From a virus (taxonomy: Duplodnaviria > Caudoviricetes): a stretch of DNA of 51,364 bases. The stretch covers positions 1-51,364 of the IMG/VR virus record IMGVR_UViG_3300011443_000004; one strand, written 5' to 3'. The position numbers and the translations under genes were made by a program. Positions 3,203 to 48,913 of this stretch are shown piece after piece. The notes beneath the pieces are model-generated. The model did no database searches. It saw only the letters and a program-made list of their open reading frames with translations, and was not told the origin of the DNA. How positions within the stretch are numbered: position 1 is the first letter of the stretch; the number at the start of each line of letters is the position of its first letter.

Positions 3203-3231
3203 TTGCACAAATCGTGCCATCGCGGTATGAT
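3203..3231 (+). promoter_or_regulatory. sigma70-like promoter of the scaffold/capsid operon
   Basis: TTGCAC-N17-TATGAT. Confidence 0.6.
3204..3219 (-). promoter_or_regulatory. sigma54-type -24/-12 site, antisense
   Basis: Minus strand TGGCACGATTTGTGCA. Confidence 0.65.
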
Positions 3232-3251
3232 TATTAGGCAAGCAATTCGTA

Positions 3252-3267
3252 TGCACATTTCGTGCCA
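3252..3267 (-). promoter_or_regulatory. sigma54-type -24/-12 site, antisense
   Basis: Minus strand TGGCACGAAATGTGCA. Confidence 0.65.
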
Positions 3268-3310
3268 ATTTCCAGCGTGGAACCAGACCACGTAAAAAAG
3301 GGTTGAATCA

Positions 3311-4180
3311 ATGGCTGACCAAGACGGCGTCATAACGAGTCCAGATGCAGGGGCACCTGGCACAGGCGGAAGCAACACACCAAACACCGGCAACGCCCCT
3401 GGCGGCGCACAGCCAGTAGCCGAAAAGACGTTCTCCTTCAAGGAGGACCGAAGTGATTGGGTGCCACGCACTCGCTTGAATGAGGTAAGCGGTAAGCTCA
3501 CCACCTACGAGAAGGAAAACCTCACGCTCAAGCAGCAACTGGAGCTTGCGGAGAACCGGACTCGCGCCCTCGTTGGCGTGAACCCCGTGGACCCGAAGCA
3601 GCAGTCGCAGCAAGAGATGCGTGCGGCTATCGAGGAACTCGTTCCTGAAATCAAGGCCCTGCAGGGATTCTCTGCGGAGCAGCTACAGGAAGTGCTCGAA
3701 GCCGCGAAGCAGGCGCAAGCCGCCGCACGTCAGTCCTCCAATCGGCACGCGGAAACGATGCTGAACGAGATTGATGCGGAAGCCACGCGCTCACTGGGCG
3801 TCGAGAAGCTCACGAGCAATCAGCAGAAGCAGTTGTATCGAGCCTACCGCGAAGCAGCGATTGAAGCTGCCGGCGCTCGACCGTTCATCGAAGGCACACG
3901 GGACCGTCACGACCCCACGGGTCAGGACTTCCTCAGCCGTCATGAGCGCGGCGACAAGACACTGGTGAAGGAGTTCGTGAAGCAATACCTTGCGGAGTGG
4001 TATGAGCCCGCGCGAAGGTCAGTCACGGCATCGCAGGCGAACCGGAACCTCCGACCCGTTCCTCGTGGGGAACGCGCACGGAGTCTCCCGGCAGGCGCAG
4101 GCGGCGCTAAAGTCGATTTGAACAACAAGGAAGACTTCAAGAAAGCCATCCTCGCAGCACGCGGGGCGGGCCAAGAGTAA
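3311..4180 (+). CDS. Capsid scaffolding protein
   Basis: Lies between portal and capsid; disordered N-terminus; VPRTRLNEV motif followed by coiled coil. Confidence 0.75.
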   Translation: MADQDGVITSPDAGAPGTGGSNTPNTGNAPGGAQPVAEKTFSFKEDRSDWVPRTRLNEVSGKLTTYEKENLTLKQQLELAENRTRALVGVNPVDPKQQSQQEMRAAIEELVPEIKALQGFSAEQLQEVLEAAKQAQAAARQSSNRHAETMLNEIDAEATRSLGVEKLTSNQQKQLYRAYREAAIEAAGARPFIEGTRDRHDPTGQDFLSRHERGDKTLVKEFVKQYLAEWYEPARRSVTASQANRNLRPVPRGERARSLPAGAGGAKVDLNNKEDFKKAILAARGAGQE

Positions 4181-4198
4181 GTCAAGTAGGAGCATCAC

Positions 4199-5509
4199 AT
4201 GGCAGGCGTAGATACCACAGTTCTCTCCGGTCTGGAGAAGGACGTATTCGAGAAGGGCGTCAGCGAAGGCGTCAACAACAGCTTCCCGCTCAAGGAGTTC
4301 TTCGAGCCGGAACTGACGGACGCTGACTACGTTGGCGGCGGCGGGCACATCTGGTCGCATCACGTTGGGCGGAACACCAGCCCGATGTTCACGCGCGAGG
4401 GTGCGGCGTTCGCATCTGCTGGCGCACAGCGGCACATCAAGGGGCGCATCGACATCCGCAAGATGATGGCGCGGCTCTACATGACGGCCGAAGCGATGGA
4501 GTTCTACCAGCGGTCTGAGGCGTCGTATGCGAATGCGATGTCCGACGAGAAGACCCGCTTGGTTGACGACATTGCGTTCCGCGAAGAGTATGCCCTGTCG
4601 GCTGACGGGCGCGGCGTTCTCGCTCTCTTGAGCGACGACCCGGGCACCACGACCGACGTTGACGTGGACTCACCCGCGAACATCCCGGGCACGAGCTTCG
4701 GCAACCGCTTCATCCAGAAGGGTATGTTCGTTGGGGCTGTCAACCCGGCGACCGGCTCTCTGCGTGCGGGCATCGCCCAGGTTGCGGAAGTCAACCAGGA
4801 CGGTTCCGACTTCACGGCTGCGGGCGCGATTGACGCGGCGTGGGCGGACAACGACTACATCGTGCAGGCGGCGAATGCCTCTGTCACGAGCGTGCTCGAC
4901 ACCAGCTACGAAGCGGCCTTCTGGGGCCTCCCGGCGCTGATTGACGACGGCACGAACCGCGACAACTACTTCGGCATCACGCGCACGGACGCTCCGTCGC
5001 TGAAGTCGTATGTGGTGAGCAACGCTGGAGCCTTCTCGCTCGACCTCGCGCAGCGCACGGCTGACGTGGTCAACCAGAAGCTCGGTGGAGAGATTGATAC
5101 GCTCGTGATGCATCACTCGGTGCGCCGCGAATACATCAAGCTGCTCAACGCGGACAGACGCTACAGCGGGAACAACCTGCAGAACCCCAACGGCGGAACC
5201 GTTGCGATGAAGCAGGGCGACCTCACGCTGGGTGAATGCACCGTGAAGGCGATTCGCTCGGTCGGCCTGGCTCAGGTCTACTTCCTCGATACGAAGCGCA
5301 GCGGATTCAAGCGCTACATCGCGGAAGCGGGCAAGTTCGAGGACCGCGACGGCAGCATCTGGCAGCGCGACGGCAGCGGAACATCTGCTCGCCATGCGTT
5401 TGAAGCCTGGTGGTATTCGTGGAAGCAGAACTTCTGCACGAACCCCGGATTCAATGCCCGGTGGGACGGTGTGACCGGCCAGACGTTGGTCGTTGTTCGC
5501 GCCGAGTAA
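4199..5509 (+). CDS. Major capsid protein (HK97 fold, P22 coat-like)
   Basis: 436 aa with strong codon bias, follows the scaffold gene; capsid-like motifs (GLPALIDDGT, YFGITRT, VYFLDT); followed by a terminator. Confidence 0.85.
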   Translation: MAGVDTTVLSGLEKDVFEKGVSEGVNNSFPLKEFFEPELTDADYVGGGGHIWSHHVGRNTSPMFTREGAAFASAGAQRHIKGRIDIRKMMARLYMTAEAMEFYQRSEASYANAMSDEKTRLVDDIAFREEYALSADGRGVLALLSDDPGTTTDVDVDSPANIPGTSFGNRFIQKGMFVGAVNPATGSLRAGIAQVAEVNQDGSDFTAAGAIDAAWADNDYIVQAANASVTSVLDTSYEAAFWGLPALIDDGTNRDNYFGITRTDAPSLKSYVVSNAGAFSLDLAQRTADVVNQKLGGEIDTLVMHHSVRREYIKLLNADRRYSGNNLQNPNGGTVAMKQGDLTLGECTVKAIRSVGLAQVYFLDTKRSGFKRYIAEAGKFEDRDGSIWQRDGSGTSARHAFEAWWYSWKQNFCTNPGFNARWDGVTGQTLVVVRAE

Positions 5510-5521
5510 GTAGCAACAGGT

Positions 5522-5552
5522 GGGGAGGGGCAATGTGCCTCTCCCCCTTGTT
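5522..5552 (+). terminator. Intrinsic terminator after capsid
   Basis: GGGGAGGGGC-aatgt-GCCTCTCCCC then CTTGTT. Confidence 0.65.
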
Positions 5553-6784: not shown

Positions 6785-6847
6785 CCTCTGGATGGTTGGA
6801 GCGGGGAGCACGGCAGTGCCGTTACCGATTCCAGCGAGGATAGTATC

Positions 6848-7351
6848 ATGGCTCTTTCTCTTGTGAATGCCAACCTTGTGTGGCAGGAAGTCAAAATCGC
6901 GTTCGGTGGTGAGTCCGGCGCTGGCACGGGAACCCCGAAGCTGCTTCAGGAACAGTTCCTGGCGTTGAAGGCGCACCTTGCGCAGGTCAAGAAGAACCCC
7001 GACCTGCAGATTGTTCGCATTCAGGGCGGGTCGATTGACGACGCCTCTGGTCAGATTCTGGCGGACACGCCTTGCAAGCTCTACGGCGTCTACCTCAAGA
7101 AGGCTGCGACGGGCACCGACGTGTTCACGCAAATCATCGACGACGCCACGGACGACTCCTTGGCGGCTGTCACGTCCATCGTCGCCGTTCTCCCGCTGAC
7201 CCAGTCGAGCGAGCAGGTTGCCCTGTTCTACCCGAATGGCCTGGCGATGAGCACGGGCGTTGTGGCGAAAGCCTACAACGAGTTCGACGGTGTCACCGAC
7301 TCTTCGGCGTCGGATACGCCTGACGGCTTCATCATCATCGGCGCTGCGTAA
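6848..7351 (+). CDS. Putative virion structural/decoration protein
   Basis: Strong codon bias, beta-rich, GAGG RBS, downstream terminator. Confidence 0.65.
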   Translation: MALSLVNANLVWQEVKIAFGGESGAGTGTPKLLQEQFLALKAHLAQVKKNPDLQIVRIQGGSIDDASGQILADTPCKLYGVYLKKAATGTDVFTQIIDDATDDSLAAVTSIVAVLPLTQSSEQVALFYPNGLAMSTGVVAKAYNEFDGVTDSSASDTPDGFIIIGAA

Positions 7352-16377: not shown

Positions 16378-17355
16378 GTGGCGAATGACATCTTCGACAA
16401 ACCGTTCTCACTCGTCGGGGACGCGACCCCGGAGAAGATGTATCAGATTGATGCGATGTTCGAGGACATCTATCGGCGCTTGGCCTCGACGCAGCAGACG
16501 GTCGTGCAGGCGTTTCCGGAAGGACAGCCTGTTGACGTGACGCGATGGAAGACGGGTCCGTGGACGTATGATGGCATCGTGCCGTCTGCGCGCGTGGCCC
16601 GCCTCGTCCACAACCTGGCGGCGGCGACGGAGTATGCGGACTTCGCGCCGGAAGGCATCGACACCTGCGTCGAGATAGCCGTGACTCCGCTCGGAGCCGG
16701 CGCGTCCATCAGCGGTATCCGCCACTTCGGGCAGATATCGCGCAAAATCTGCATCGTGAACGCCAGCGGCACCGAGTCGCTGACGATTCCGCATGAGGAA
16801 GCGACTTCGACAGACATCTACCGCTTCAATCTCCCCGACAGCACCGACATTGTGCTCGCACCCTACCAGGTGCTGTGGGCGAGCTACAACCCGGAGCTTC
16901 ACCGCTGGCAGTTGATGGTGACGCCGCATTCGTCGGGCGGGCTCTCGGGCGGGGGCGGGGTTGCACTCTACGCTTCGCGGACCTTCTTGGAGGCTGAACT
17001 GGAGGCCATGACGGGGGCGACGTTCTGCGAGGTCATCCCTGCGATAGCGAATACCTGTATCGTCCCCCTCGATGTGGTGTGGGACAACGATGTGACAGAC
17101 GCCTACACCAACGCGCCGACGTGGGTGGTGCATCGAAACGGCGGGGGCGGAAACGGGTTGATAACCCCGCTGTCACTGACCTACAGCACCGGCCCGCGTC
17201 GTCAGGTGTATCGGTCGGCTATGGTGGCTGGCTCAGACCCTTTGGCCGACTTTTCTGGGACAAATGTAGGCTGCACCCTTGCGGCTGCACTCACCGGGGT
17301 CGGCGCGGCTACGACCACTGTCCACATCTGGTATGGGACTTTTAGCACGGTATAA
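16378..17355 (+). CDS. Putative tail protein
   Basis: GGAGG plus GTG start directly after the tail-hub gene. Confidence 0.6.
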   Translation: MANDIFDKPFSLVGDATPEKMYQIDAMFEDIYRRLASTQQTVVQAFPEGQPVDVTRWKTGPWTYDGIVPSARVARLVHNLAAATEYADFAPEGIDTCVEIAVTPLGAGASISGIRHFGQISRKICIVNASGTESLTIPHEEATSTDIYRFNLPDSTDIVLAPYQVLWASYNPELHRWQLMVTPHSSGGLSGGGGVALYASRTFLEAELEAMTGATFCEVIPAIANTCIVPLDVVWDNDVTDAYTNAPTWVVHRNGGGGNGLITPLSLTYSTGPRRQVYRSAMVAGSDPLADFSGTNVGCTLAAALTGVGAATTTVHIWYGTFSTV

Positions 17356-17370
17356 GCAAGAAACGTGCCA
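17355..17370 (-). promoter_or_regulatory. sigma54-type site, antisense, upstream of ejection genes
   Basis: Minus strand TGGCACGTTTCTTGCT (consensus match); TAAAAT at 17378-17383 on the + strand. Confidence 0.7.
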
Positions 17371-23060: not shown

Positions 23061-23076
23061 TGGCATGGGGTTTGCA
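23061..23076 (+). promoter_or_regulatory. sigma54-type promoter of the nucleotide-metabolism operon
   Basis: TGGCATGGGGTTTGCA, intergenic, sense to the downstream genes. Confidence 0.7.
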
Positions 23077-23135
23077 TCAGTAGATGTAGACCCCTTTGCT
23101 ATGTATGGAGGTCCATGACCAATAAAGGAGACACT

Positions 23136-24248: not shown

Positions 24249-24266
24249 CAGAGAAGGAGTCGTAAC

Positions 24267-29457: not shown

Positions 29458-29473
29458 AGCAAGGGCTGTGCCA
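29458..29473 (-). promoter_or_regulatory. sigma54-type promoter of the HTH-lipoprotein-DUF4159 operon
   Basis: TGGCACAGCCCTTGCT. Confidence 0.75.
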
Positions 29474-32420: not shown

Positions 32421-33190
32421 CGTCTGAATGTCTCCATAATCTTCTTGGCTCGGGACGCGCCGAGTCGCTTGGTGCCCTCTTTGTTGGGCACCGCTAGCTC
32501 CGACCACTCTGCCTCGGTCATGAGAAGCACCCGCTGTAGCTGGTCACGTAGGGCCAGGTCGGGTCCTACGAAGTCCTCCACAGCCTTAGATACTGCAAGA
32601 CCTATGCCAGGCAGCGTCACAGTGAGCGCTTTCCGGAAGTCGCTAGCCGGCGTCAGCAGAGCACCGTCGAGGTCAGGCGCGTAGACCGCCAGGTGGCTCT
32701 TGTGCTCGTCTAGCGCCTTGTCAGTCCAGTAACGGTAGCACGCAGCGATGAACCGGAGGGTATCGCGCCGGCTCGTCGTGTGTCGCACCCAGCACCCACC
32801 CCTAGTCTGGATGTTGAGTATCTCCTGTTCAAAGGCCATCGCGTTAGGGACTCCAGCCATCGGCCGCGCCCGATTGCCCTTACCGCGAAAGGTCGTGGCT
32901 CGTCCCTTGTCGTCGGAGTGAAAGTCACCCTCGATAAGTAGGTATCGCCGGTCGAAGTCTCGACACAGTCCCAGTAGCTGATGTCCTTGGAAGCGTTTGG
33001 TGCGAAGCGACGTTGCAAGCTCACCTACTTTCTTCAGTTCGATGCCGATGAAGAGAAGGGTTTCCCCCTCCCCTCGACCGACAAACGCGATATCACCGAA
33101 TTCCAGATGGGTCTTCTGGACGATGAACCCCATCTTCTCTAGGGGCGATACTAGCTCGTTGCTGCCCGTCGCGCCGTCTATCAGAATCAT
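32417..33190 (-). CDS. ERCC4/XPF-like nuclease (resolvase) with HhH
   Basis: LEFGDI..IELKKVGEL..RFQGHQL..LLIEG; LPGIG HhH. Confidence 0.8.
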   Translation of the reverse strand: MILIDGATGSNELVSPLEKMGFIVQKTHLEFGDIAFVGRGEGETLLFIGIELKKVGELATSLRTKRFQGHQLLGLCRDFDRRYLLIEGDFHSDDKGRATTFRGKGNRARPMAGVPNAMAFEQEILNIQTRGGCWVRHTTSRRDTLRFIAACYRYWTDKALDEHKSHLAVYAPDLDGALLTPASDFRKALTVTLPGIGLAVSKAVEDFVGPDLALRDQLQRVLLMTEAEWSELAVPNKEGTKRLGASRAKKIMETFRR

Positions 33191-33389: not shown

Positions 33390-33559
33390 CACGTCTCCTT
33401 TCGAGCATTCGCCACCCAGAGCATCGCCGTCTCTAGGTTCGTCGCCGCAACAGCCATCGCTCGCGGGTCGCACCACTCGGGATGTGCCTTGAGCGCGTTC
33501 AGGGCGTCAAGGTGTATCTGCATCGCCGTGAGAAGCTCCAGCCACTTTGCTTCGTCCAT
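33389..33559 (-). CDS. Small helical-hairpin protein, Acb2/Tad1-like (56 aa)
   Basis: Hand-translated MDEAKWLELL...DPRAMAVAATNLETAMLWVANARKET; coupled on both sides. Confidence 0.5.
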   Translation of the reverse strand: MDEAKWLELLTAMQIHLDALNALKAHPEWCDPRAMAVAATNLETAMLWVANARKET

Positions 33560-34341
33560 TACAGCCCCCAGTCTTCGGGCGACGAGTCCGGATACAGCAG
33601 CATCGCCAGGGTGAGGAAGTCCAAGTCTGCGAACTCCTTGCCCATCAGGTCAACGGCGTTACCTAGCCGGCACTTCTCCAGTATCTTCACCTTGAAGGCG
33701 CGGTCTTCGTCGTCCCATCGGTGCTCCAGATTGACTTGGACAAGCTCTGTTACTTCCTTCTGTCCGCGCGGCTTCATGACACCCGTGAAACCCATCTGCG
33801 GGGCACCAGTCTGGCGAGACACTCCGGTCACGCCCCAGGTATCCTTGAGCCCTCGAATGAGCCCCAGGTTCATGCCAGCGGCCTCAGCCTGCACGATGAG
33901 CCCTCGATACTGCATGTTCAGTTCGTAGAAGTTCTTCGGCGTCGGAGAGTCCACTTCATCGTGGGCATACCGGAGCGTCTCCCACAGGATGTCCTCCTTG
34001 TCGATAACGGCAGTGCGCGCGAGGTTCAGCGCAATCGGCCACGCTTCCTCGAACCCCTGCATGACTTCGATGGCGCGCGCTACTCGCTGCTCGCGTGGCA
34101 GTCGCCCGTAGTCGAGCTTCTTCGACAGGTCGATGACGCGGATATCCTTCTCTTTGAAGAGAGGGTTATCCGACAGGCCCTTCAACCCACCCGGGTCGAA
34201 GAGGAAGTAGGCGATAGGGTCGGGGGCCGTCAGCCAGAAGTGGGTTTTGCCCGCCCCGCCGATGCCCTGTGATGACGCGATGATGCTGCGTGTCTCGTCC
34301 GCGCCTAGCTGTGCGAATGCTCCCCAGTCTGCTGTTGTCAT
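33559..34341 (-). CDS. P-loop ATPase (AAA_24/Sak4-like recombination protein)
   Basis: GIGGAGKTHF, AVID; replication context. Confidence 0.75.
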   Translation of the reverse strand: MTTADWGAFAQLGADETRSIIASSQGIGGAGKTHFWLTAPDPIAYFLFDPGGLKGLSDNPLFKEKDIRVIDLSKKLDYGRLPREQRVARAIEVMQGFEEAWPIALNLARTAVIDKEDILWETLRYAHDEVDSPTPKNFYELNMQYRGLIVQAEAAGMNLGLIRGLKDTWGVTGVSRQTGAPQMGFTGVMKPRGQKEVTELVQVNLEHRWDDEDRAFKVKILEKCRLGNAVDLMGKEFADLDFLTLAMLLYPDSSPEDWGL

Positions 34342-37094: not shown

Positions 37095-37141
37095 TCACTG
37101 TCCTCCTGTTAGGTCAATCAAAGTGCCTATACAGATATACC

Positions 37142-37157
37142 TGCATAAGCCGTGCCA
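37142..37157 (-). promoter_or_regulatory. sigma54-type promoter of the replication operon
   Basis: TGGCACGGCTTATGCA. Confidence 0.75.
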
Positions 37158-37171: not shown

Positions 37172-38041
37172 CTACTTGGGCTCCGCGAGCCCGATGTCGT
37201 CGTCCTTCTCTGCCTTCCGGTGGTCCTTGTCCGCCGTATAACTACCTGCAAGAATCAGGCCGGACTTCTTGTCGTTCGTCCAGGTCGGGGAGATATACAG
37301 GGTGCTCGGTAGCCCCCACGCCCTGACCTTGTCCGGTTCGAGCCGCGTCAACGAGAGTCCGTCCTTCCGTGGTCGCCCTGCAGCCTTCACCTGAAACTGC
37401 ACCTGGTCGGCTGCGCCCTGCCAGTGCTTCGCGCCCCTCATGGTCCTACGCCCGCCCTTCTCGGTGCGTATCTTCGCGTGCTTGATAGGTATCGCCGTGG
37501 CTACCGGGTCCGTGAGGTTCATGAGCCGCTTGATACCCTTGATGCCCTGGTTCGCTTCGGCGTTGCTGTTCTCGTCCCCGATGTTGAGACAGGGGGTCGC
37601 CGTGTCGAAGAAGATAGCATGAGGCTTGATGGCCTGCACATACTCGCCGGCTACGGCCTCCCAATCCTCCGTCCCAAGCACGTCCGCCGCCACCCAGAAG
37701 TTGGTGTGCAGCATTCCCAGGTCTGGCTCCTTCTTGTTGGCGCGGGTGAGCCCCTGGAAGGCCCGCCGCAGATACTTGTTCCGGTCCTGACTGCTGTTCT
37801 CGTTGTCGAAGTAGAGCACTCGCTTGGGCTCGCCAGCGGGCACCAGGCCCGATAGCGCCGGACTCCCGCTCGCTATCGCCATGCCTATCGCCATGCACAG
37901 CAGTGACTTCCCCGCCCCCGGCTCGCCGGCCAAGCACACCATCGTGCCCTGCAGCCACAGGTTGGGCACGAGCCATTGCGGGTTCTCTTCTTCCGACGTT
38001 AGGATGTCCACGATTGGATTCTCGATGTCCTCAAGCTCCAT
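37172..38041 (-). CDS. RepA/AAA_25 RecA-family helicase
   Basis: PQWLVPNL..AGEPGAGKS, VLYFDNE, IFFDT, MRGA..W. Confidence 0.85.
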   Translation of the reverse strand: MELEDIENPIVDILTSEEENPQWLVPNLWLQGTMVCLAGEPGAGKSLLCMAIGMAIASGSPALSGLVPAGEPKRVLYFDNENSSQDRNKYLRRAFQGLTRANKKEPDLGMLHTNFWVAADVLGTEDWEAVAGEYVQAIKPHAIFFDTATPCLNIGDENSNAEANQGIKGIKRLMNLTDPVATAIPIKHAKIRTEKGGRRTMRGAKHWQGAADQVQFQVKAAGRPRKDGLSLTRLEPDKVRAWGLPSTLYISPTWTNDKKSGLILAGSYTADKDHRKAEKDDDIGLAEPK

Positions 38042-38064: not shown

Positions 38065-38160
38065 CGGAAACTAACCGAGTTTTTTCCTCGGTTTTTAATT
38101 CTCGTTTAGAATCAACGCTTTAGCGAAACGGAAAACCCCCACTACCTAGTAAGGTAGTTA
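38065..38160 (+). repeat. ~95 bp element, copy A (contains an IHF-like site)
   Basis: Inverted homolog of 48287-48382. Confidence 0.85.
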
Positions 38161-39330: not shown

Positions 39331-42022
39331 CTATTCCCCTCCTTCGGTAGTCGCACAGCCACGACGTTGTGCGTAAGTGGTTCGAGCAGGCCAATAATGG
39401 CCGCGTTGTCGAGCCTGCCCTCGGCAGTCACGGTCCCATCATCGGCTACAGAGTAAAAGAATGTGAGGTCGTCGGGGTGGTCCCCCATCCACGCCAGCCG
39501 CTTGTCGCTGATGACGTAGCGCGCATACTTCGCTTGCTTTCCGATGACGCTAACGGTGTATGGGCGCTCGCCGTGTAGGCGCGCGTGCTCGGCCTCCGCT
39601 GCGTCCCCGACGACGATGCCCATCATCGGAGAGAAAGGTCGGCGAATATCTCGCCCCCTTCCCTCCAAGATAGCGCGGCGAACGATGGTCACGCTGTCAC
39701 CGCGAGGTAGATGATGGCGAGCGTAGCCGTGACGAGCCAGAAGAACCCGTAGGCGCGTTGCCGGCGAAGGTGCGTGGTCGCGTGGGACAGTGCCCGCAGC
39801 ACCTGCGTGTGGTGCGTGAGAATCTCGCTCAGGTCCTTGTCCCCGATGCCTCGAACGAAAGTTGACTTCTTCATGTGTGTGTCCTCTCCAGTGAACAGCC
39901 AGTTACTAGCTAGTTACTTACTCTGCAAGCTGCGTGCCGATGATGGCCGCAGCCCGTCGTGCCGTCTCGCGCTGCCCGCTGCAGTAGCCGGGATACTCCC
40001 GCCCGGGGGTGTTTGCGTTCGGGCTGCTGCTCTTGATGAGCTTGGCGAGAATGGGATGGCCCGCCCCCTGCGCCCGCGCCTGCTCCTTCTTCGAGCCCGC
40101 GCCCACCTTCAGGAGCGCGAGCACCGCGACTATCGCCGCGTTGAACCGCTGTTGAACCCTACCTAGTCCCGCCATTTAGACGACCTCCTGTGCGGTAAAC
40201 GTGAACGGCTTCATCGCTGCGCGCCCGCCCTGACCCCTGTCGAAGGCCAGGATGAAAGCCGTTGCCTCAGCCGGCAGCAGAAGCTGCCGCCGATACTTGT
40301 CCTTGACGATGCTACCCGCGAAGATAGTATCGCTGCCGACAGCGATGTTCTTACGCCGCAGCTTACGCTTGGCCGCGAGCGCAACCGGGCAGAAGCTGCA
40401 GCTTCGCTGCACGCCGCTGTTGATGTCCGCCTGCGTGACGGTGATAACGACCGGCTTGAATCCGTTAGGATGTTGCATCGGGTGCCTCCCCCTGGTTCTT
40501 CTTCGCCAGTATCCGCTGGCGTCGGCTCAGGCCCTGCTTGGCCCGGTCCCGGCAGATGCCCTCCCACCGCGTGACCATGCGCCGTGACGCAAAGGCCCCA
40601 TCGGGGTTGACGACCGTGCGGAACTTCTCAAGGTCCCGCTGGCCCGCTTCCCTGTTGGAAAGCTGCTCATACTTGGTAGCCGCAGCTACCGCTTCCGTGC
40701 GCATGGCGAGCCCGATAGCCGCCAGCGGTAGACCCTCATACTTGTTCTGTCTGCTCATGCCTTCTCCCCTGCTATGGTGGCGAATATCTCGTCCACCGAT
40801 ATGTCTACGGTCTTCCCCTTGAGTGTCACCGACAGGAACCCCCACTGGTCGAGTGGGATGCGCAGCCGCGCTCGTGTGGTCTGCAGTCCCGTGGGGTTAT
40901 CCTTCCCCTGCGCGAAGGCTCGAACGTCTGCCAGGGGCAGCGCCAGCACCGCGAGGATAGCCTGTCGCCTAGTCAAGGGCGTCAAGGTCTGGGTCCTCTG
41001 CACGCATGTTGGCATATGCCGTTTCGTCTTCACTGGTCACGCCACCGCGCGGAGCGATGCCGCCTATCGAAGACCCCCGCGTGCTGTGGTGCTGTCCCGG
41101 CCAGTGCATCAGCACTCCCGCCCAGGTCGCCGCCGCGTTGCCATGTCGGAGCACGCCGAGTGCGCCCGCTGGTGCCATGACTAACTTCATCCGCTGGTCC
41201 CGTGTCAGTGTCTTTACTTCACTCATGGTCCGTCTTCTCCCCTGCAAAAGTAGCATTGAAATTCTGGGTCCTCTGGGTCGTCTACGACGGGCGTCACTGG
41301 CTCGCTCGCCCGCCCGAAGAAGCACATAACATCGCCCGCTTCGAGCTTGGGCCGGTGTCGGTCGCACGACTGGAACGTGTAGTCCTCCGGTCCAGCCTCG
41401 AACTGCAGCGTGCGCTCGCACGTTACTAGCTCACTTGCCACTCGTGTATCCTCCCACAAAGCACTCTTCACTCTCCGACCACACGCTGACGGCGACGATG
41501 GTATCCCGTGGGTCAGCGAGCAGCGCCTGTGCCTCTTCTGCAATATCCGCGCCATGCTGCGTGCTGCCGGCGAGAACCTCGCTGGTGCTGGTCCCCTTCT
41601 TCCGTGGGTGGGGCCTGCAGACGACCAGCTTGTAGGGGCCTCGATGCCGGTCCCAGAAGGGTAGACTCATCGCCCCTTCTCCAGGTCGAAGCCGCACAGC
41701 GGGCACTCGTGCTGCGCCTGCTTCGAGAACCAGCGTTCGCACATGCCGCAATACCAGTGGGCTATACGTTTCTTCACAGTAACTCTCCCATCTGCTGTAT
41801 CCGGCCTTCGAGGTCTTCGATGCGTGCCGCCGCCCCCGCTTCCCCCTGCTCGCGCGCTAGGACGGCCCGTAGCACGTCCAGGGTTCCGTTTGCAGAGCCG
41901 TGGCGGTTCAGCCGCTCGATGGTCGCCTGCGCCAGGCTGAGGGCCTCCACGACGGTCACAGTGGAGACTGGTTCGGCCCGCAGGGCGTCGTAAGTCAACG
42001 CCGGGATATCTCTGTCGCTCAT
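39327..42022 (-). other. Cluster of about 12 small overlapping early-gene ORFs of unknown function
   Basis: Approximate coordinates: 39327-39692, 39689-39874, 39918-40175, 40176-40478, 40465-40758, 40755-40976 (twin-Arg-like signal), 40969-41226, 41223-41441, 41431-41670, 41667-41777, 41774-42022; mostly overlap-coupled. Confidence 0.65.
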
Positions 42023-42396: not shown

Positions 42397-42755
42397 CAGT
42401 AAAACCCTCCGGTCACGGGACGCACCCGCATGGTCACGGGTTTGATTCTGTCATCCTTTGTGGTCAATTCGCTGGTCACGCAGTCCTTACATGCAATCGC
42501 CGCGCCATTGCGCCTCAGCCTCGACAGGCCCGCCTGCGTTTGCGTGATGTCCTTCGAGCACAGGGTGCAGCGGAAGCTGGCTGCATGGACATAGGCGAGC
42601 GTGCCCCATTCTGGCCCTGCCTTCGTGTCGTATATGTGCCAGACGTTTGCGGGCACAGGTCGAAGCCTCCGACCATCGAGCGTGATGTCCCCTTTTGTGG
42701 GCGCGGGTGTCACCACGAACCAATGGTCTTTTCGGTCGGCGCGGTAGTCCCTCAT
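42396..42755 (-). CDS. Zn-finger hypothetical protein
   Basis: CTLC...CKDC; start at MRDYRA. Confidence 0.55.
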   Translation of the reverse strand: MRDYRADRKDHWFVVTPAPTKGDITLDGRRLRPVPANVWHIYDTKAGPEWGTLAYVHAASFRCTLCSKDITQTQAGLSRLRRNGAAIACKDCVTSELTTKDDRIKPVTMRVRPVTGGFY

Positions 42756-43114
42756 ACGGCGCTCACCGTGTAGGTGCGCAACAGGCGCGCATAGGTGCGC
42801 CGGAAGGGCTCGCCATGCGAAGTCCCCCGCATCTTGCGTGGCTTGCGGTCGTTCAGGACGTGTGCGCACTCATGGAGCACGCTATCGAGCTTAATGCGCC
42901 GCTGGCTGTCGCAGGAGAGGTAGATTGCGCGCGTCCCCCAGGCCCAGGAGCCTCGAATACGCTTCGCTTGGATGTGGACCTTAGGCCCCACTATCTCGCG
43001 CGCTATATCGAGCGCTACGGCCTCAGGGAACTTGCGTTGCGCCAGGCATAGGTGCGCCAGGTCGCCGTGGCTGTTCAGCCAGCGGACCACGTTCGTGTAG
43101 TCCAGTGCGCTCAC
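42752..43114 (-). CDS. SprT-like HExxH metalloprotease
   Basis: VLHECAHV...HGEPF. Confidence 0.7.
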   Translation of the reverse strand: MSALDYTNVVRWLNSHGDLAHLCLAQRKFPEAVALDIAREIVGPKVHIQAKRIRGSWAWGTRAIYLSCDSQRRIKLDSVLHECAHVLNDRKPRKMRGTSHGEPFRRTYARLLRTYTVSAV

Positions 43115-44810
43115 AGCCCTAGCCCCAACTGCACGGAGGTATCGGGCGCAGTCTCCGCGACGGGTATCACGACCTCGAAAGGCTCGCCATAGTCGATGGA
43201 GCGCTTCATGCTCCCGACCTTGCCCATGTCTGCACCGTGGTCGCGCAGGCTCGCCTCGGCCAGCTTCAGGTCCGCGCCGGTCCCGTGGTAGCGGATAGCG
43301 CGCGGCTCGTTCGGATGTATCTCGAACTGGGGGAACGACTGCAGTGCCTGCAGCGCCAGGGCCGGCGAGTGCCAGAGTATGCAGATGGTGGCGCTGTAGT
43401 CGCCCCAGAAGTGGTGCTGCAACTGCCCCTTGCCGATGATGCCTGCACGCATGCTACTCTCCCTGCGCGGCAATGCGCGCCTTTTCCGCCTGCACTCGCG
43501 CGGTCAGGGCCTCGACTGCGCCCATGTAGTCACGCGCCTTGAAGGTGAGCCCCGTATGTCGCGCCGCCGCCGCCATCATAGCCTTCGGCGTATAGGCCCG
43601 GTTCGGTCGCATGCCCGTCGCGGCATACATGCGGAGGCCACTGGCGAGCACCGCCATAGCGAACACGTCTACGGCCCCCGGTCCACTGAACGAGCGCGCA
43701 TTGCCCTGTTCGTCGTATGTGATGTTGTCCATGCTACTCTCCCCAGATGATGATGTTCATACCTGCGAGGGGTCCTGCACAAGCTGTGCCGCCGCGCGCC
43801 GCAGCCGATACGCCGTGCGCGCCTCCACGAACGCATCGAGCACCGCCCGGTCCCTGTCCGTCAGCCCCAGGCAGAAGGTCGAGCGAAACTGTGCAATCTC
43901 TGCATCGTCCGAGTAGGGCGACACTGCCCAATTCTGCACATGCCCGTTGCCGTCGATGTAGAGCACCCGCACCATGCTGTAGGTAGACGCCTTTGGCTTG
44001 TTCCAGGGCTTGTTCCAGAATTCAACCGGCCGCTTAGGGTCGGTCGTCTGGCTCACCACGCGCTGCCCATTCTTGTTCGTCTCAATCCAGACGCGCTTCT
44101 TGCAGCGTAGGATGCGCCCATACGGGTAGTCCGCGATGATATACGCCGTTTCAGGGCTCGTGTGGCCGCTCAGCACCGTGATACCTGTCGGAAATTCCAT
44201 CGTCTACTTCTCCAGCGCTAACAGTAGCGCAATCTGTCTGTCTCGAAGTCTCGCCATCCGCTTCGACATCTCATCCTGCACAGCCTGTGCCAAGTCAATC
44301 ATGCTCTCGACCGCATGTAATTGCGACTTCAGCGCCAGGCGCAGCGCAGCATCGACCTCGGCGGGTGACGGTTGATTGTCCACCTTAGGCTCCAACAGTG
44401 TCCCCCTCGTATGTGTCGAGTGCCTCGATTGACGCCTCCAGATTGCGCGCCGACGTTTCGAGCCTGTTTGCACTCTCGCGCGCATCCGCTATCTGGCGCA
44501 GCTTCGCGCGCTGCGTCGTGCGCACCAGGCGCAATTGCCTCTCCAGATAGCTTCGTGTCGCTGTTCGTTCCTGTGCTGTCATGTCTCCCCCTCACCACAT
44601 TGGCGCAGTGCGGCGTAGTTCCCACTGCGCATCCTCGCTCGCACGTTCCCACAACCGCCATTGGTCAGGGAGTGGCGCGTCTATCGCCTCGAAGTCGCGT
44701 TGCATCGCCGCCCACAAGTTGATGATGCCTTGCAGGTTCTTGGCTCGCTGTAGCCGCGTGAGCCTCCCCCGATACAGCGTGCAGAGTTTCTGAGCCTTTG
44801 CGTAGTCCAC
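43111..44810 (-). other. Cluster of about six early ORFs
   Basis: 43111-43452, 43454-43732, 43757-44200 (DYPYG motif), about 44204-44380, 44385-44582, 44592-44810; most have a purine-rich RBS. Confidence 0.65.
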
Positions 44811-44851: not shown

Positions 44852-44867
44852 TGCAAGCGGGATGCCA
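44852..44867 (-). promoter_or_regulatory. sigma54-type promoter of the leftward early operon
   Basis: TGGCATCCCGCTTGCA, 42 nt upstream of the GTG at 44810. Confidence 0.7.
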
Positions 44868-45028
44868 GGCAGGTTCACGGCATTGCACACCTGCCCGTAA
44901 CTGCCCGCAGCTTCCGCATAGCGCACGCTACTGTTCATCACTGCGCGCCACTTGCCGTCGCTGCCGGCCGTTGCACCCGCTTGCACCTACTTGCACACTC
45001 TGTCTTGTCGTCGCACGTCATGACAAGG

Positions 45029-45044
45029 TGCATACGCCGTGCCA
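45029..45044 (-). promoter_or_regulatory. Second leftward sigma54-type promoter
   Basis: TGGCACGGCGTATGCA. Confidence 0.7.
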
Positions 45045-45203: not shown

Positions 45204-45219
45204 TGGCATAGCGCCTGCA
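45204..45219 (+). promoter_or_regulatory. Rightward sigma54-type promoter
   Basis: TGGCATAGCGCCTGCA; predicted +1 near the ATG at 45232. Confidence 0.7.
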
Positions 45220-46730: not shown

Positions 46731-46731
46731 C

Positions 46732-47055: not shown

Positions 47056-47335
47056 GCCTAACGCCGAACCTTTGGCGCGCGATATCTCGGCCGAACCTTT
47101 GCGCCGATACGATGATACGCGCGCACGCGATAAGGCGCGCATCATTGGAGTAGCGCTAGACTTGCTCGAACAATCGGCAGTAGACGCAACAAAGGGCTAT
47201 ACCGCGCCTGCATACTCGTTTATTGCAGGCTCTGCAGATATCTCCGTCGATAGGTTCTCGAACGACTACGACGCGCGCGCCAACTATATCCGCGCCTTGC
47301 TAGCCGATATCCGCTCGAACCTGCTACCGTTCTGA
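47045..47335 (+). CDS. Hypothetical protein
   Basis: Overlap-coupled. Confidence 0.6.
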   Translation: MRARPNAEPLARDISAEPLRRYDDTRARDKARIIGVALDLLEQSAVDATKGYTAPAYSFIAGSADISVDRFSNDYDARANYIRALLADIRSNLLPF

Positions 47336-47509
47336 GGTAACGCAATGGACCCACAAACGACGCGCGAGGATATCGCTGCAGGCGAGTGGACGATAGAGTG
47401 CGAAGTATGTGATACGACTACCGTAGTCGTCTGCAGACATGAACCTAATCAATGCCCCAACTGCGGCAGCGTTTTCGGGCATGAAGTAACGCCCGGGCGT
47501 ATCGACTAA

Positions 47510-48280
47510 CATCCTGCCAACTGGCGCGCTAGGCTACGGTCTGGCGCGCTATCCTTTCCCTACCCTACCCGATACCCTACCCGATACGCTCGAACGTCCT
47601 AGCAGGCGCAGGCGCGTTACCTCGCGCGTTAGCAGGCGCGTTAGCAGGCGCAGGCGCTAGGCTCTGCTCTACTGCTTACGCTCGAACGTGGCGCAGTATA
47701 TAGTCCCTTGCGTTACTTACCTACTGACTAGGACGCTAGGCACCGCCGCACCCTGCCAACTGCGCGCCTGAATAGTCCCCCCTGCCATATGCCAATCGGC
47801 TAGTATTGCGGTTAATATAGCGGTTAATTAAACGGCTAGTATCTAGGCCAAGTATCTGCAGGGTATTAGGCTGTGCCAACACTAGCTGGCATGAGGCAAG
47901 GCGGGCTCGAAGATAGTGTGCAATCCGGCCCGAATGCGTGCAAGTGCGTGCAGTTCCGTGCAGCAAGGGGGGGGGGACCCCCGCGAGCGATGGCCCTGGC
48001 CCCCCGGGGGCGGTGTCTGCGCAAAATTTTTGCAGAATTCGTCCCCTTAGGAGGACAATAGGCGGCGGGCTATGGGCGCGGGCACCGCCAATAGGCGCGG
48101 GCCTATCGACAGGAAGTGCTTGCGTTCGCACAGCAGCAGATGCTTGTGCTTACCCAGGCGGGGAAATGCCCAGCGAATCGCCGGCTAGGTGGGCAGAGGT
48201 CCGGAGTCGCGCGGCTCCCGGGCATGGACATGTCGGTCGCCGCTAGGGTGCAGGTATGAGCAGTATTGGATACTCCGAAT
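47510..48280. other. Non-coding region with short repeats and a G-run; probable genome-end/packaging region
   Basis: CCCTACCCGATA x2, AGCAGGCGC x3, a long G run at about 47967, GCAAAATTTTTGC; upstream of the terS region. Confidence 0.5.
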
Positions 48281-48286
48281 AATGCA

Positions 48287-48382
48287 TTACCTACTCTACT
48301 AGTAGGGGGGTATTTCGGTTACTGTAAAGTGTTGATTCTAAACACAATCAATTAACCGCGTGGAAAACTCGGTTAGTTTCCG
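48287..48382 (-). repeat. ~95 bp element, copy B
   Basis: Reverse complement aligns to 38065-38160. Confidence 0.85.
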
Positions 48383-48886
48383 CGCCCGGGTTTGGCCGAT
48401 GTCTTGGCCGATGTTCTGAAGCGAATAGAGGGCAGTTTTCGCTTCAATCGGCGCAGCAGGGCGAGCCCCACCGTCCATTTGAGCAGGACGTAGAGGCTGG
48501 CCCAGGCCATAAACCAGTAGTCGGGCGGGTTCACAGGCCCATCATCCGCTTGTTCAGGGCCTTGAGGGTCGGGACGCCGGCACTGAAGAGGGTGCGGGTC
48601 AGGGCACCGTTCGGACAGAGCCACCAGCGGTAGCCGACCAGCAGGTGGGTGCAGATGAAGCATTCGCCGCAGTGGGAGCAGCGATAGGGGTAGCAGCCTG
48701 CCTCGGTCACTTCGTGGAGGGTGCAGACTTTGACTCCCTGGAGCCGCGTGATGAATCGGAACAGACTGAGCATGAATGAATCTCCACAAGGGTTGCGAGG
48801 TCAGTGTCGGCAGCGCCGGCCGGCTTGCAGTCGCTGATAGTTCGACCGCAGCCGGGGCAGTAGAAGCAGAGCCATCTTGGGTTCAT
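48373..48886 (-). other. Three small leftward ORFs (two Cys-rich, one membrane)
   Basis: 48707-48886, 48531-48773, about 48373-48534. Confidence 0.45.
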
Positions 48887-48897
48887 GTAAGTATACT

Positions 48898-48913
48898 TGC
48901 ATAATCCGTGCCA
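48898..48913 (-). promoter_or_regulatory. sigma54-type site overlapping a sigma70-like terS promoter on the opposite strand
   Basis: Minus strand TGGCACGGATTATGCA; plus strand TTGCAT-N17-CAGAAT (48897-48925) with TG extension. Confidence 0.7.

What the first reader, a model, noticed from the sequence alone, without database searches (positions are those of the whole stretch)
3204..48913. Genome-wide sigma54 (RpoN)-type promoter programme in a phage with no sigma factor or enhancer-binding protein of its own
Seen: ten copies of TGGCA(C/T)-N6-TGC(A/T) with exact GG-N10-GC spacing, all in or at the edge of the few intergenic gaps: 3204(-), 3252(-), 17355(-), 23061(+), 29458(-), 37142(-), 44852(-), 45029(-), 45204(+), 48898(-). 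Seven point into early/middle operons. Known: this is the sigma54 -24/-12 consensus, and sigma54 holoenzyme normally needs a GAFTGA AAA+ activator; I see none encoded here. Inference: the phage runs early, replication and metabolic transcription on host sigma54, using a host activator or a new kind of phage activator. Most characterised phages use sigma70 or their own polymerase/sigma factor.
Basis: partly seen in the sequence, partly recalled or inferred. Interest (0 to 1): 0.88.

Follow-up and report, generated by a model that had tools for sequence, protein, structure and literature searches.

The report
Phage operons behind sigma-54-type promoters
An uncultured 51-kb phage and its relatives place near-perfect copies of the bacterial sigma-54 promoter in front of their replication and early genes, and backwards on top of two late-gene promoters, yet encode no sigma-54 or activator, so they probably borrow the host's sigma-54 machinery.

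Summary
TGGCAY-N6-TGCW occurs 12 times in the 51,364-bp window against 0.57 expected.

Eight of 12 lie outside called genes, where random placement gives 1.46. Seven of 12 sit 38-124 nt before a co-directional start codon, where 1.30 is expected.

The sites are conserved at homologous places in syntenic relatives G001, G002, L032 and L033, while the spacer letters change. More distant relatives (L061-L063) carry 3-5 sites per ~16 kb before long ORFs.

Nine sites head non-structural operons. Three (3204, 3252, 17355) point backwards inside the late operon. Site 3204 overlaps a conserved sigma70-like promoter, as does 48898, which heads a leftward gene.

No sigma-54, sigma-70, or enhancer-binding ATPase was found in the window. 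None of the five relative records searched has the ATPase either.

Transcription by host sigma-54 is inferred, not shown: the host is unknown and no start sites could be mapped.

Pseudomonas phage YuA is a published precedent for rpoN-dependent phage promoters. This scan has also noted sigma-54 promoter sets in other uncultured phages.

The parts
45204..45219 (+). Sigma-54-type site heading the rightward operon of the divergent control region. The predicted +1 (about 45230) lies 2 nt before ATG 45232, the start of a 68-aa ORF, so the mRNA would be nearly leaderless.
   Evidence: An IHF-consensus hit at 45186 lies 6 nt upstream, and GTGTGCAA boxes lie at 45086 and 45127.
45029..45044 (-). Upstream member of a tandem pair of sigma-54-type sites for the leftward early operon.
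44852..44867 (-). Downstream member of the tandem pair, 41 nt before the GTG start at 44810 with a GGAGG ribosome-binding site.
44277..44292 (-). Exact site inside a small called ORF, 76 nt before the 147-aa gene 43757-44200. Possibly an internal promoter.
   Evidence: No conservation in relatives was seen.
37142..37157 (-). Sigma-54-type promoter in the gap between the DnaB-like helicase gene and the 313-aa gene, 47 nt before the start at 37094.
   Evidence: A site lies at the same place before homologs in G001, L020, L022/L025 and L023, and a weaker one (2 mismatches) in G002.
32594..32609 (-). Exact site inside the ERCC4-nuclease gene, co-directional, 86-173 nt before the next gene depending on which start is used.
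   Evidence: Not conserved in G001.
29458..29473 (-). Sigma-54-type promoter after the DNA polymerase gene, 45 nt before the 83-aa winged-helix gene 29161-29412 and the operon that runs down to 27102.
   Evidence: G001 has CGGCAC-N5-GTGCA in the same gap at 36746(-). G002 has none within 2 mismatches.
23061..23076 (+). Sigma-54-type promoter at the end of the structural operon, 38 nt before the exonuclease / nucleotide-metabolism module 23115-27056.
   Evidence: G002 has a site at 29226(+) before the homolog. In G001 the module is inverted and joined to the minus-strand operon, and it has no site of its own.
48898..48913 (-). Sigma-54-type site whose predicted +1 (48887) lies 1 nt before ATG 48886, the start of a 59-aa Cys-rich ORF. 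It lies back-to-back with, and overlaps, a plus-strand sigma70-like TTGCAT-N17-CAGAAT in front of the 49036/terminase operon.
   Evidence: Equivalent sites: G001 7933(-) with ATG at +3, G002 2672(-), L032 861(-).
3204..3219 (-). Antisense sigma-54-type site in the gap between the portal and scaffold genes. It overlaps a plus-strand sigma70-like promoter (3204-3231).
   Evidence: GGCA(C/T)-N5-(T/G)TGCAA is kept on the minus strand in 5 of 5 relatives aligned, and each has a -10-like hexamer on the plus strand.
3252..3267 (-). Second antisense site, 48 nt from the first.
   Evidence: Kept in L033 (exact) and G001 (GG-N10-GC retained), lost in G002 and L032.
17355..17370 (-). Antisense site in the 46-nt gap between two late genes (16378-17355 and 17402-18178).
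   Evidence: G002 has a perfect TGGCAC-N5-TTGCA at the homologous place and strand, 22952(-). G001 has none.
39924..39939 (-). One-mismatch variant (CGGCAC-N5-TTGCA), 49 nt before gene 39689-39874. A candidate weaker promoter. Similar co-directional variants lie at 41539 and 42492.
37172..38041 (-). AAA_25 / DnaB-like P-loop protein. It was considered as an activator and rejected.
33559..34341 (-). AAA_24 (Sak4-like) P-loop protein. It was considered as an activator and rejected.

Best explanation
The sites are genuine binding sites for host RNA polymerase carrying sigma-54 (RpoN). The phage lineage uses them in two ways.

(1) Nine co-directional sites act as enhancer-dependent promoters for non-structural units:
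- the divergent early control region (45029, 44852 leftward; 45204 rightward);
- a small Cys-rich gene (48898);
- the 313-aa gene (37142);
- the winged-helix/envelope operon after the DNA polymerase (29458);
- the exonuclease and nucleotide-pool module (23061);
- two internal sites (44277, 32594).

(2) Three sites face backwards inside the late operon (3204, 3252, 17355). Site 3204, and the leftward promoter 48898, overlap sigma70-like late promoters. There a sigma-54 holoenzyme parked in its closed complex would hinder late transcription or make antisense RNA.

The phage supplies neither sigma-54 nor a canonical AAA+ activator. Opening of the promoters must therefore come from a host enhancer-binding protein, possibly acting from solution, or from an unrecognised phage factor.

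Shown here: motif identity, excess, placement, strand logic and conservation; absence of recognisable sigma and activator genes. Inferred: binding by sigma-54, the transcription start, the activator, and the antagonism at late promoters.
For: 1. Excess: 12 exact hits against 0.57 expected; 0 of 100 shuffles reached 12.

2. Placement: 8 of 12 lie outside called genes (expected 1.46). Seven of 12 lie 38-124 nt before a co-directional start (expected 1.30). Neither count was reached in 20,000 random placements.

3. Strand logic: of the sites keeping GG-N10-GC with at most 2 mismatches, all 11 that lie between 27.1 and 45.0 kb, where genes are on the minus strand, are on the minus strand.

4. Conservation with changing spacers:
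- Before the 313-aa gene, a site with at most 1 mismatch sits 58-80 nt before the match in 5 of 6 loci that have upstream sequence. L022 and L025 are identical there, so this is 4 independent loci of 5. Protein identity is only 34-42%.
- In the portal-scaffold gap the site is kept in 5 of 5 relatives.
- The 17355, 23061 and 48898 equivalents are present in G002, and 48898 also in G001 and L032.
- In 19 relatives' sites, the T-GG-CA and TGC positions are kept in 17-19 of 19, against 6-11 of 19 for the spacer positions.

5. Clade signal: 4 hits in G001, 4 in G002, and 9 per 65.9 kb in loci with capsid identity of 85% or more. Loci with capsid identity of 47-53% have 2 per 296 kb, which is the control level.

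6. Wider kin found through the Sak4-like gene carry 3, 3 and 5 exact sites per ~16 kb; L061 and L062 are identical at their sites. Ten of the 11 sites are co-directional with that gene, and those ten lie 12-61 nt before ORFs of 54-531 aa.

7. Geometry: counting 12 nt from the C of the GC puts +1 one or two nt before an ATG opening a 59-, 68- or 82-aa ORF at 48898, 45204 and G001 7933. That is what leaderless mRNAs would need.

8. Sigma70-type consensus promoters are not enriched: 10 found against about 12 expected over the 47.4 kb scanned.

9. Precedent: YuA is stated to depend on sigma70 and sigma54 and carries annotated -24/-12 promoters.
Against: - The host is unknown. There is no prophage or cultured relative, so I cannot show that the host has rpoN.
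- No transcript 5' ends are available. The only RNA run is kept as contigs, and only four short pieces fit.
- No activator was found in the window or in the five relative records searched.
- No upstream activator box is shared by the promoters. The best shared 8-mer is not convincing.
- An IHF-consensus site accompanies only 45204, and the GTGCAA boxes are not conserved in G001 or G002.
- Three sites are antisense to genes. Two exact sites (32594, 44277) lie in coding DNA and are not conserved.
- The DNA-polymerase-gap site is absent in G002, and L021 lacks the site before the 313-aa homolog.
- YuA itself has 0 exact matches in the 50 kb read, so the precedent rests on much weaker motifs.
Confidence: 0.66

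Rival explanations
1. The sites are mainly docking or parking sites for sigma-54 holoenzyme, which binds stably without an activator, rather than productive promoters. They would sequester host sigma-54 polymerase, block or insulate transcription units, and shut overlapping sigma70 promoters. The genes downstream would be read from other promoters.
For: - No activator gene and no shared upstream box were found.
- Three sites face away from any gene, and 3204 and 48898 overlap sigma70-like promoters.
- Other AI notes of this scan describe gene-free arrays of such sites in other phages. These are unchecked leads only.
Against: - Seven of 12 sites keep promoter-like distances to co-directional start codons, with ribosome-binding sites or an ATG at the predicted +1.
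- G001 lacks a site of its own before the exonuclease module, which there is fused into an operon that already has one. This is as expected for a promoter and not for a decoy.
- Sigma70-like promoters that could otherwise serve these operons are not enriched.
Confidence: 0.14
2. A factor other than sigma-54 reads the motif: a phage-encoded DNA-binding protein or an unrecognised phage sigma-like protein that redirects host polymerase, in the way T4 MotA/AsiA do (recalled). The likeness to the -24/-12 consensus would be coincidental or mimicry.
For: - Most early proteins have no known family: searches left most of them without a hit.
- YuA has a separate phage-specific promoter motif thought to need phage factors.
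- A TAT-rich hexamer follows many sites by 1-3 nt.
Against: - The conserved positions and the exact GG-N10-GC spacing coincide with the sigma-54 consensus (recalled) at about ten positions, in the window and in relatives.
- The distance from TTGGCA to the TAT-rich hexamer is 11-15 nt, read by eye. That does not fit a sigma70 -35/-10 pair.
- Early regulators diverge strongly between the window, G001 and G002 while the motif stays constant. That fits a conserved host reader better.
Confidence: 0.12
3. The motif is a compositional accident, or a restriction-modification or packaging-type word with no role in transcription.
For: None beyond the fact that two exact sites lie in coding DNA.
Against: - Shuffles and the backward-read control.
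- Intergenic and start-codon placement.
- Strand bias.
- Positional conservation across relatives with diverged flanks.
Confidence: 0.02

Closest known systems
Bacterial enhancer-dependent sigma-54 (RpoN) promoters, for example glnAp2, pspA, nifH (names and the consensus TGGCAC-N5-TTGCW are recalled, not from a call)
   Same: - GG and GC exactly 10 nt apart with the extended consensus.
- A position a few tens of nt before start codons.
- At 45204, an IHF-consensus site and repeated boxes upstream, in the classical order.
   Different: - The sites are on a phage, at about 12 per 51 kb.
- There is no cognate AAA+ activator gene nearby or anywhere in the genome.
- No upstream box is shared.
- Three sites are antisense to genes.
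- Two promoters would give leaderless mRNAs.
rpoN-dependent promoters of Pseudomonas phage YuA (Ceyssens et al. 2008, J Bacteriol 190:1429). I could not open that paper. I saw one passage of PMC10914365 that cites it, and the feature table of NC_010116.
   Same: - A tailed phage without its own RNA polymerase that is reported to use host sigma-54 as well as sigma-70.
- The window's DNA polymerase is about 48-49% identical to those of phages such as PaMx28, PaMx74 and AAT-1. That these share YuA's family is recalled, not from a call.
   Different: - YuA's three annotated -24/-12 promoters lie in the head, tail and lysis region. Its sequence has 0 exact matches to the pattern in the 50 kb read.
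- Here the sites are near-consensus and four times as many. They head early, replication and nucleotide-metabolism units, and sit backwards on late promoters.
- The capsid and terminase are unrelated to YuA's group.
Intragenic and antisense sigma-54 binding sites in E. coli (Bonocora et al. 2015, PMC4591121; only the search listing and the start of the abstract were seen)
   Same: Sigma-54 holoenzyme binding at places that do not head a gene, in a transcriptionally inactive state. This is a possible model for 3204, 3252 and 17355.
   Different: Here the antisense sites are intergenic and conserved across phage relatives. One overlaps a conserved sigma70-like promoter, which suggests a designed antagonism rather than incidental binding.
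Phage antisense promoters that hold back late genes, such as lambda paQ and P22 sar (recalled, not from a call)
   Same: A promoter facing into late genes from their downstream side, as one reading of 3204/3252 and 17355.
   Different: Those are sigma-70 promoters (paQ is CII-activated). No antisense RNA has been shown here.

Membership tests
Sigma-54 (RpoN) -24/-12 promoter | Invariant GG and GC doublets spaced exactly 10 nt apart | tested here: met
   12 of 12 exact sites. 19 of 19 sites compiled from relatives keep both doublets.
Sigma-54 (RpoN) -24/-12 promoter | Extended consensus TGGCAC-N5-TTGCW (consensus recalled) | tested here: met
   Eleven of the 12 sites have 1 mismatch to TGGCAC-N5-TTGCA over the 11 specified positions, and one (45204) has 2.
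Sigma-54 (RpoN) -24/-12 promoter | Lies upstream of, and co-directional with, the transcribed gene | tested here: inconclusive
   Met for 9 of 12 sites. Sites 3204, 3252 and 17355 are antisense to the late operon.
Sigma-54 (RpoN) -24/-12 promoter | Transcription starts about 11-13 nt after the GC | not testable with these tools
   The only RNA run is kept as contigs, with four short pieces and no ends. Indirect support: an ATG at predicted +2/+3 at 48898, 45204 and G001 7933.
Sigma-54 (RpoN) -24/-12 promoter | Dependence on rpoN, and a host that has rpoN | not testable with these tools
   Host unknown. No relative was found in 185,579 species genomes or among cultured phages.
Sigma-54 (RpoN) -24/-12 promoter | A cognate AAA+ enhancer-binding protein (GAFTGA loop) with upstream binding sites | tested here: not met
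   - On the phage: PF00158 and PF14532 have no six-frame match at E<=1.
- No GAFTGA-like or GESGTGK-like string.
- The only Walker-A proteins besides the terminase are DnaB-like, Sak4-like and a 106-aa ORF.
- Relatives G001-G005 have none.
- A host activator remains possible. No shared upstream box was found.
Sigma-54 (RpoN) -24/-12 promoter | An IHF site between the enhancer and the core promoter (common, not obligatory) | tested here: inconclusive
   The genome has only 3 IHF-consensus hits. One (45186) lies next to 45204 and 142 nt upstream of 45029. None accompanies the other sites.
YuA-type rpoN-dependent phage promoters | Experimentally rpoN-dependent activity, located in the particle-formation and lysis region | tested here: not met
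The location differs: the window's co-directional sites head non-structural units, whereas YuA's are late. There is no sequence likeness.

The most novel reading that the evidence does not exclude
The phage uses host sigma-54 holoenzyme as a two-way switch and timer.

Early, at low genome copy number, the scarce holoenzyme occupies every consensus site. It fires the early, replication and nucleotide-pool operons, opened either by a stress-activated host enhancer-binding protein acting from solution or by a new, non-AAA+ phage factor among the many unknown early ORFs. At the same time it sits, needing no activator, on the -35 elements of the sigma70-like promoters for the terminase and capsid operons.

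Once replication multiplies the 12 sites per genome beyond the supply of sigma-54, the late promoters are freed. The early-to-late transition would then be set by titration of a host sigma factor rather than by a phage-made regulator.
Probability: 0.15. Interest if true: 0.85.

Novelty: new variant of a known kind. Interest (0 to 1): 0.6.

Why it matters
Sigma-54 promoters cannot open without an ATP-driven activator, so a virus that places most of its non-structural operons behind them, while carrying no activator, raises a sharp question: who opens the promoters during infection?

Either answer would be new for phage biology. One is hijack of a host stress or nutrient-sensing activator, which would tie phage development to host physiology. 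The other is an unknown kind of phage activator.

The back-to-front sites on late promoters suggest a simple competition between two host sigma factors as a developmental switch.

The sites are consensus-grade, so this can be tested with standard E. coli or Pseudomonas sigma-54 reagents even though the phage is uncultured.

The lineage appears common in metagenomes. The 260-aa Sak4-like protein has 148 homologs at E<=0.001, several of them on contigs of about 50 kb.

Tried and rejected
- Close relatives by single-protein look-up. The 313-aa protein and the Sak4-like protein found nothing in viral contigs. DNA-polymerase relatives (16 loci, 25-41% identity) had 0 motif hits, so they are too distant to inform.
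- Host identification failed. There are no tRNA genes, no Rfam match, no prophage relative of the capsid or the 313-aa family in genome contigs, and no cultured phage relative of the capsid beyond 22-32% identity or of the 313-aa protein. megablast of 25 kb against phages found nothing.
- Expression. Run X4 (RNA, contigs only) gave four pieces of 157-259 nt at 32579-32735, 35919-36123, 36272-36530 and 42374-42614. They show neither strand nor ends and may be DNA carry-over, so I draw nothing from them, nor from uncovered parts. The run labels read freshwater sediment metagenome. X1 may be the source sample.
- Activator candidates. The AAA_25 protein is DnaB-like and the 260-aa Walker-A protein is AAA_24/Sak4-like (14 of 26 family members); both were rejected as enhancer-binding proteins. 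PDB sequence searches with three proteins or profiles gave nothing useful. The PF00940 search is uninformative because its control rang nowhere.
- Shared upstream boxes. The k-mer search over the 210 nt upstream of the 12 sites gave only AGGCGGAA (7 copies in the genome, in 4 independent upstream regions). Two copies share a longer GCAGGCGGAA-N-CCGC context. That is too little to call an enhancer.
- A sigma70 reading of the sites themselves (TTGGCA as -35, TAT-rich hexamer as -10) was rejected because the spacer is 11-15 nt (by eye).
- The overlapping-sigma70 idea for 17355 was rejected: no conserved -10 or -35 in the window or G002.
- Literature. Searches returned YuA as the only phage with sigma-54-dependent promoters that I could find. 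PMC7693777 only proposes a weak HHpred likeness of a phage protein to sigma-54. The preprint on Htm (abstract seen) concerns a T4-like phage protein structurally similar to enhancer-binding proteins and is not tied to sigma-54 promoters. Supplements were closed and were not requested; Table S3 of PMC10914365 (YuA start sites) may bear on the comparison.
- The sigma70 scan did not cover 40001-43999.

Full report
WHAT THE WINDOW IS

The window is a complete IMG/VR virus record of 51,364 bp. Its last 123 bases repeat the first 123, so the unique genome is 51,241 bp and probably circularly permuted. GC content is about 60%.

A rough codon-usage gene call gives 89 genes covering 90% of the sequence. 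The layout is:
- A plus-strand structural operon runs from about 49.0 kb through the ends to 23.06 kb. It holds the large terminase at 49982-345, the portal at 760-3162 and the major head protein at 4199-5509.
- A plus-strand exonuclease and nucleotide-pool module occupies 23115-27056.
- A minus-strand block runs from 45.0 down to 27.1 kb. It holds many unknown small ORFs, a DnaB-like P-loop protein, a 313-aa unknown protein, a Sak4-like P-loop protein, an ERCC4 nuclease, a family-A DNA polymerase, a winged-helix protein and a DUF4159 protein.
- A short plus-strand block occupies 45.2-47.5 kb.
- A gene-poor, repeat-rich stretch lies at 47.5-49.0 kb.

THE OBSERVATION

The mean in 100 dinucleotide-preserving shuffles is 0.57, and no shuffle exceeded 2. 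The same pattern read backwards occurs 0 times.

Eight of 12 sites are not inside a called gene, where random placement gives 1.46. Seven of 12 lie 38-124 nt before a co-directional called start codon, where 1.30 is expected. Neither count was reached in 20,000 random placements.

Among all sites that keep GG-N10-GC with at most 2 mismatches to TGGCAC-N5-TTGCA, the 11 that fall in the minus-strand gene block (27.1-45.0 kb) are all on the minus strand.

The motif is specific, non-random, promoter-placed and strand-aware.

ANATOMY

Nine sites are co-directional with the genes that follow:
- 23061(+), 29458(-) and 37142(-) sit in clean gaps, right after the stop codon of the preceding gene and 38-47 nt before a start codon with a ribosome-binding site.
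- 45029(-) and 44852(-) are a tandem pair feeding the leftward early operon, and 45204(+) faces the other way.
- Taking the C of the GC as -12, the predicted +1 of 45204 is 45230, 2 nt before ATG 45232 (a 68-aa ORF).
- The predicted +1 of 48898 is 48887, 1 nt before ATG 48886 (a 59-aa Cys-rich ORF).
- In relative G001, the equivalent site 7933(-) has an ATG at +3 that opens an 82-aa ORF.

Three independent cases of an ATG at the predicted start are what leaderless mRNAs require. They are the only sequence-level support I could obtain for the sigma-54 start-site geometry.

Three sites (3204, 3252, 17355) are on the minus strand in gaps of the plus-strand late operon.

RELATIVES

No close relative exists among GenBank phages. 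The DNA polymerase is about 48-49% identical to those of Pseudomonas, Xanthomonas, Variovorax, Janthinobacterium and Stenotrophomonas phages such as PaMx28, PaMx74 and Xp12. The capsid and terminase are unrelated to that group.

IMG/VR and metagenome scans gave two syntenic whole records:
- G001, 51,294 bp: 33 window proteins matched, at 28-87% identity.
- G002, 48,722 bp: 32 window proteins matched.

They also gave two fragments with capsids 85-90% identical (L032, L033) and short contigs carrying the 313-aa homolog (L020-L026).

Exact-pattern counts are:
- 4 in G001 (backward control 1) and 4 in G002 (control 0);
- 9 per 65.9 kb over the four close loci, against 2 per 296 kb (control 2) in 22 loci whose capsids are only 47-53% identical;
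- 0 per 258 kb (control 3) in the 16 distant polymerase loci.

POSITIONAL CONSERVATION

(a) Before the 313-aa gene. L020 and L022/L025 have perfect TGGCAC-N5-TTGCA. L023 and G001 have one mismatch, and G002 has two. L021 has none nearby, and L024 and L026 lack upstream sequence. The five spacer letters differ in every genome.

(b) In the portal-scaffold gap. GGCA(C/T)-N5-(T/G)TGCAA is kept, on the minus strand, in all five genomes aligned.

(c) 17355(-) has a perfect counterpart at G002 22952(-), at the same place and strand.

(d) 23061(+) corresponds to G002 29226(+). In G001 the same module is inverted and fused to the minus-strand operon, and it has no site of its own. A promoter would behave this way.

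(e) 48898(-) corresponds to G001 7933(-), G002 2672(-) and L032 861(-).

(f) 29458(-) corresponds to G001 36746(-), but not in G002.

Over 19 sites taken from relatives only, the T-GG-CA and TGC positions are kept in 17-19 of 19, while the spacer positions reach 6-11 of 19.

Loci found through the Sak4-like protein at only 30-35% identity (L061 and L062, which are identical at their sites, and L063) carry 3, 3 and 5 exact sites per ~16 kb. Ten of these 11 sites are co-directional with that gene, and those ten lie 12-61 nt before ORFs of 54-531 aa. The habit therefore reaches beyond the window's immediate clade.

THE BACKWARD SITES

On the plus strand, the TGCAA/TGCAC of the 3204-type site reads as a -35-like TTGCA(A/C). 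It is followed, after 16-19 nt, by a -10-like hexamer that aligns in one column in all five genomes: TATGAT, TATGAT, TACACT, GATAAT and TAGTAT/TATCAT (read by eye).

The consensus scanner independently reports 3204-3231(+) as the only plus-strand hit in 1-20 kb.

Sigma-70 has no need for the conserved GTGCC in that spacer, so both readings seem to be under selection. A sigma70-like promoter for the scaffold and capsid genes appears to overlap, on the other strand, a sigma-54 site.

The 48898-type site shows the same overlap with a TTGCA(T/A)-N17/18-(CAGAAT/TATTCT) in front of the terminase operon in the window, G002 and L032.

For 17355 I found no conserved sigma70 partner.

I reached it from the sequence before seeing that note and have added the cross-genome test.

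WHO READS THE MOTIF, AND WHO OPENS THE PROMOTER

Six-frame searches found no Sigma54_DBD, Sigma54_CBD, Sigma70_r2, Sigma54_activat or Sigma54_activ_2 at E<=1, while the controls rang. The single-subunit polymerase search had a silent control and says nothing.

No GAFTGA-like or GESGTGK-like string occurs in any frame. Every non-structural protein of 200 aa or more was scanned against Pfam without an activator-like hit.

Walker-A motifs occur in 4 of 89 genes: the terminase, the DnaB-like protein, the Sak4-like protein and a 106-aa ORF. G001-G005 also lack PF00158.

Sigma70-type consensus promoters are not enriched: 3 against 3.3, 6 against 4.1 and 1 against 4.6. The stretch 40.0-44.0 kb was not scanned.

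An upstream architecture of the classical kind is visible only at 45204. One of just three IHF-consensus hits in the genome lies 6 nt upstream of it, and two GTGTGCAA boxes lie about 77 and 118 nt upstream. These boxes are not conserved in G001 or G002, and no box is shared by the other promoters.

MOST LIKELY MECHANISM

Host sigma-54 holoenzyme binds these sites. At the nine co-directional ones it is opened by an activator the phage does not visibly encode: a host enhancer-binding protein, perhaps acting from solution, or an unrecognised phage product.

At the backward sites the closed complex, which needs no activator, competes with sigma-70 polymerase for the late promoters and/or makes antisense RNA.

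The motif, its placement and its conservation are shown. Binding, start sites, the activator and the competition are inferred. I put this at about two in three.

The main rivals are parking sites without productive transcription (about 0.14) and a non-sigma-54 reader (about 0.12).

WEAK POINTS

- The host is unknown, so the presence of rpoN is assumed. The assumption rests only on the proteobacterial hosts of the nearest polymerase relatives.
- The only RNA data set holds four short contigs without strand or ends.
- Sites 32594 and 44277 are in coding DNA and are not conserved.
- The polymerase-gap site is missing in G002, and the site before the 313-aa homolog is missing in L021.

COMPARISON WITH WHAT IS KNOWN

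The sites meet the sequence definition of sigma-54 promoters. The functional criteria could not be tested, and the activator criterion is not met on the phage itself.

The nearest published phage case is YuA. A passage in PMC10914365 states that YuA depends on sigma70 and sigma54, citing Ceyssens et al. 2008, which I could not open. The record NC_010116 annotates three -24/-12 promoters of high activity in the head and tail region.

YuA's sequence has no exact match to the pattern in the 50 kb read. The present case therefore differs in four ways:
- strength of the consensus;
- number of sites;
- the class of genes served;
- the backward sites on late promoters.

My literature searches returned no description of a phage whose early and replication operons sit behind consensus sigma-54 promoters. 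This holds only for the library searched.

Within this scan, AI notes report sigma-54-type promoter sets in many other uncultured phages, including one said to encode a minimal activator. These are unchecked leads. I tested the activator idea here and found none.

VERDICT

This is a real, conserved regulatory feature and a new variant of a known kind. It is of solid interest because it poses a clean, testable question (what opens sigma-54 promoters for a phage that brings no activator) and suggests a sigma-competition switch at late promoters.

Noticed in passing
window 38065-38145 and 48302-48382: An 81-nt inverted repeat, 75% complementary, brackets the early region. Each arm holds one of only three IHF-consensus hits in the genome (38110, 48325). 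One arm lies just upstream of the DnaB-like gene, which has no sigma-54-type site.
   Followed up: partly
window about 48968-48996; G001, G002 and L032 at the equivalent place: A ~25-nt element in the presumed leader of the terminase/late operon is conserved in four genomes while its flanks diverge (by eye). A related GCAGGCGGAA-N-CCGC word also occurs at 29569(-). It could be a late-control RNA or DNA element, or a packaging signal.
   Followed up: no
window 44971-45000, 45086, 45127, 47918-47965: GTGCAA/TTGCAC boxes occur in direct repeats phased 10 bp apart: three in the leader of the 45029 promoter, two between the divergent promoters, and four (two of them GTGCAG) in the gene-poor region next to a G/C-rich palindrome. 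They are probably operators or iterons of a phage regulator. They are not conserved in G001 or G002.
   Followed up: partly
window 47540-47660 and 47790-47850: Short tandem and interspersed repeats (CCTACCCGATAC-type, TTAGCAGGCGC-type, GGCTAGTAT / GCGGTTAAT-type) lie in the lowest-GC part of the genome. They resemble a replication origin (by eye).
   Followed up: no
window 25103-26493: The module behind the 23061(+) site encodes a protein with the N-terminal domain of dATP/dGTP diphosphohydrolases (PF18909, E 7.7e-7) and an NT5C-type 5'-deoxynucleotidase (E 1e-6). This hints at manipulation of the nucleotide pool or at modified DNA. I saw no PurZ-like gene, but I did not search for one.
   Followed up: no
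window 23067-23094 (+) and 37125-37150 (-): Hairpins of 12 and 11 pairs overlap the -12 element and the predicted start of the 23061 and 37142 sites, each followed by a T-rich tail. They may terminate the preceding unit exactly where the next one starts.
   Followed up: no
window 36409-36480: Four overlapping copies of a 36-nt unit with a 12-nt period lie inside the 313-aa gene. This is a short peptide repeat in the protein that has the best-conserved sigma-54-type promoter. Its family has no Pfam, PHROG or PDB match.
   Followed up: no
L032 about 6800-6900: Between the portal gene and the antisense site, this relative carries what looks by eye like a tRNA gene on the late strand (a T-arm-like GGTTCGATCCC in reverse complement). 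It was not checked with ARAGORN.
   Followed up: no
window 27102-28079: A DUF4159 protein (E 7.8e-40) ends the operon led by the 29458 site.
   Followed up: no
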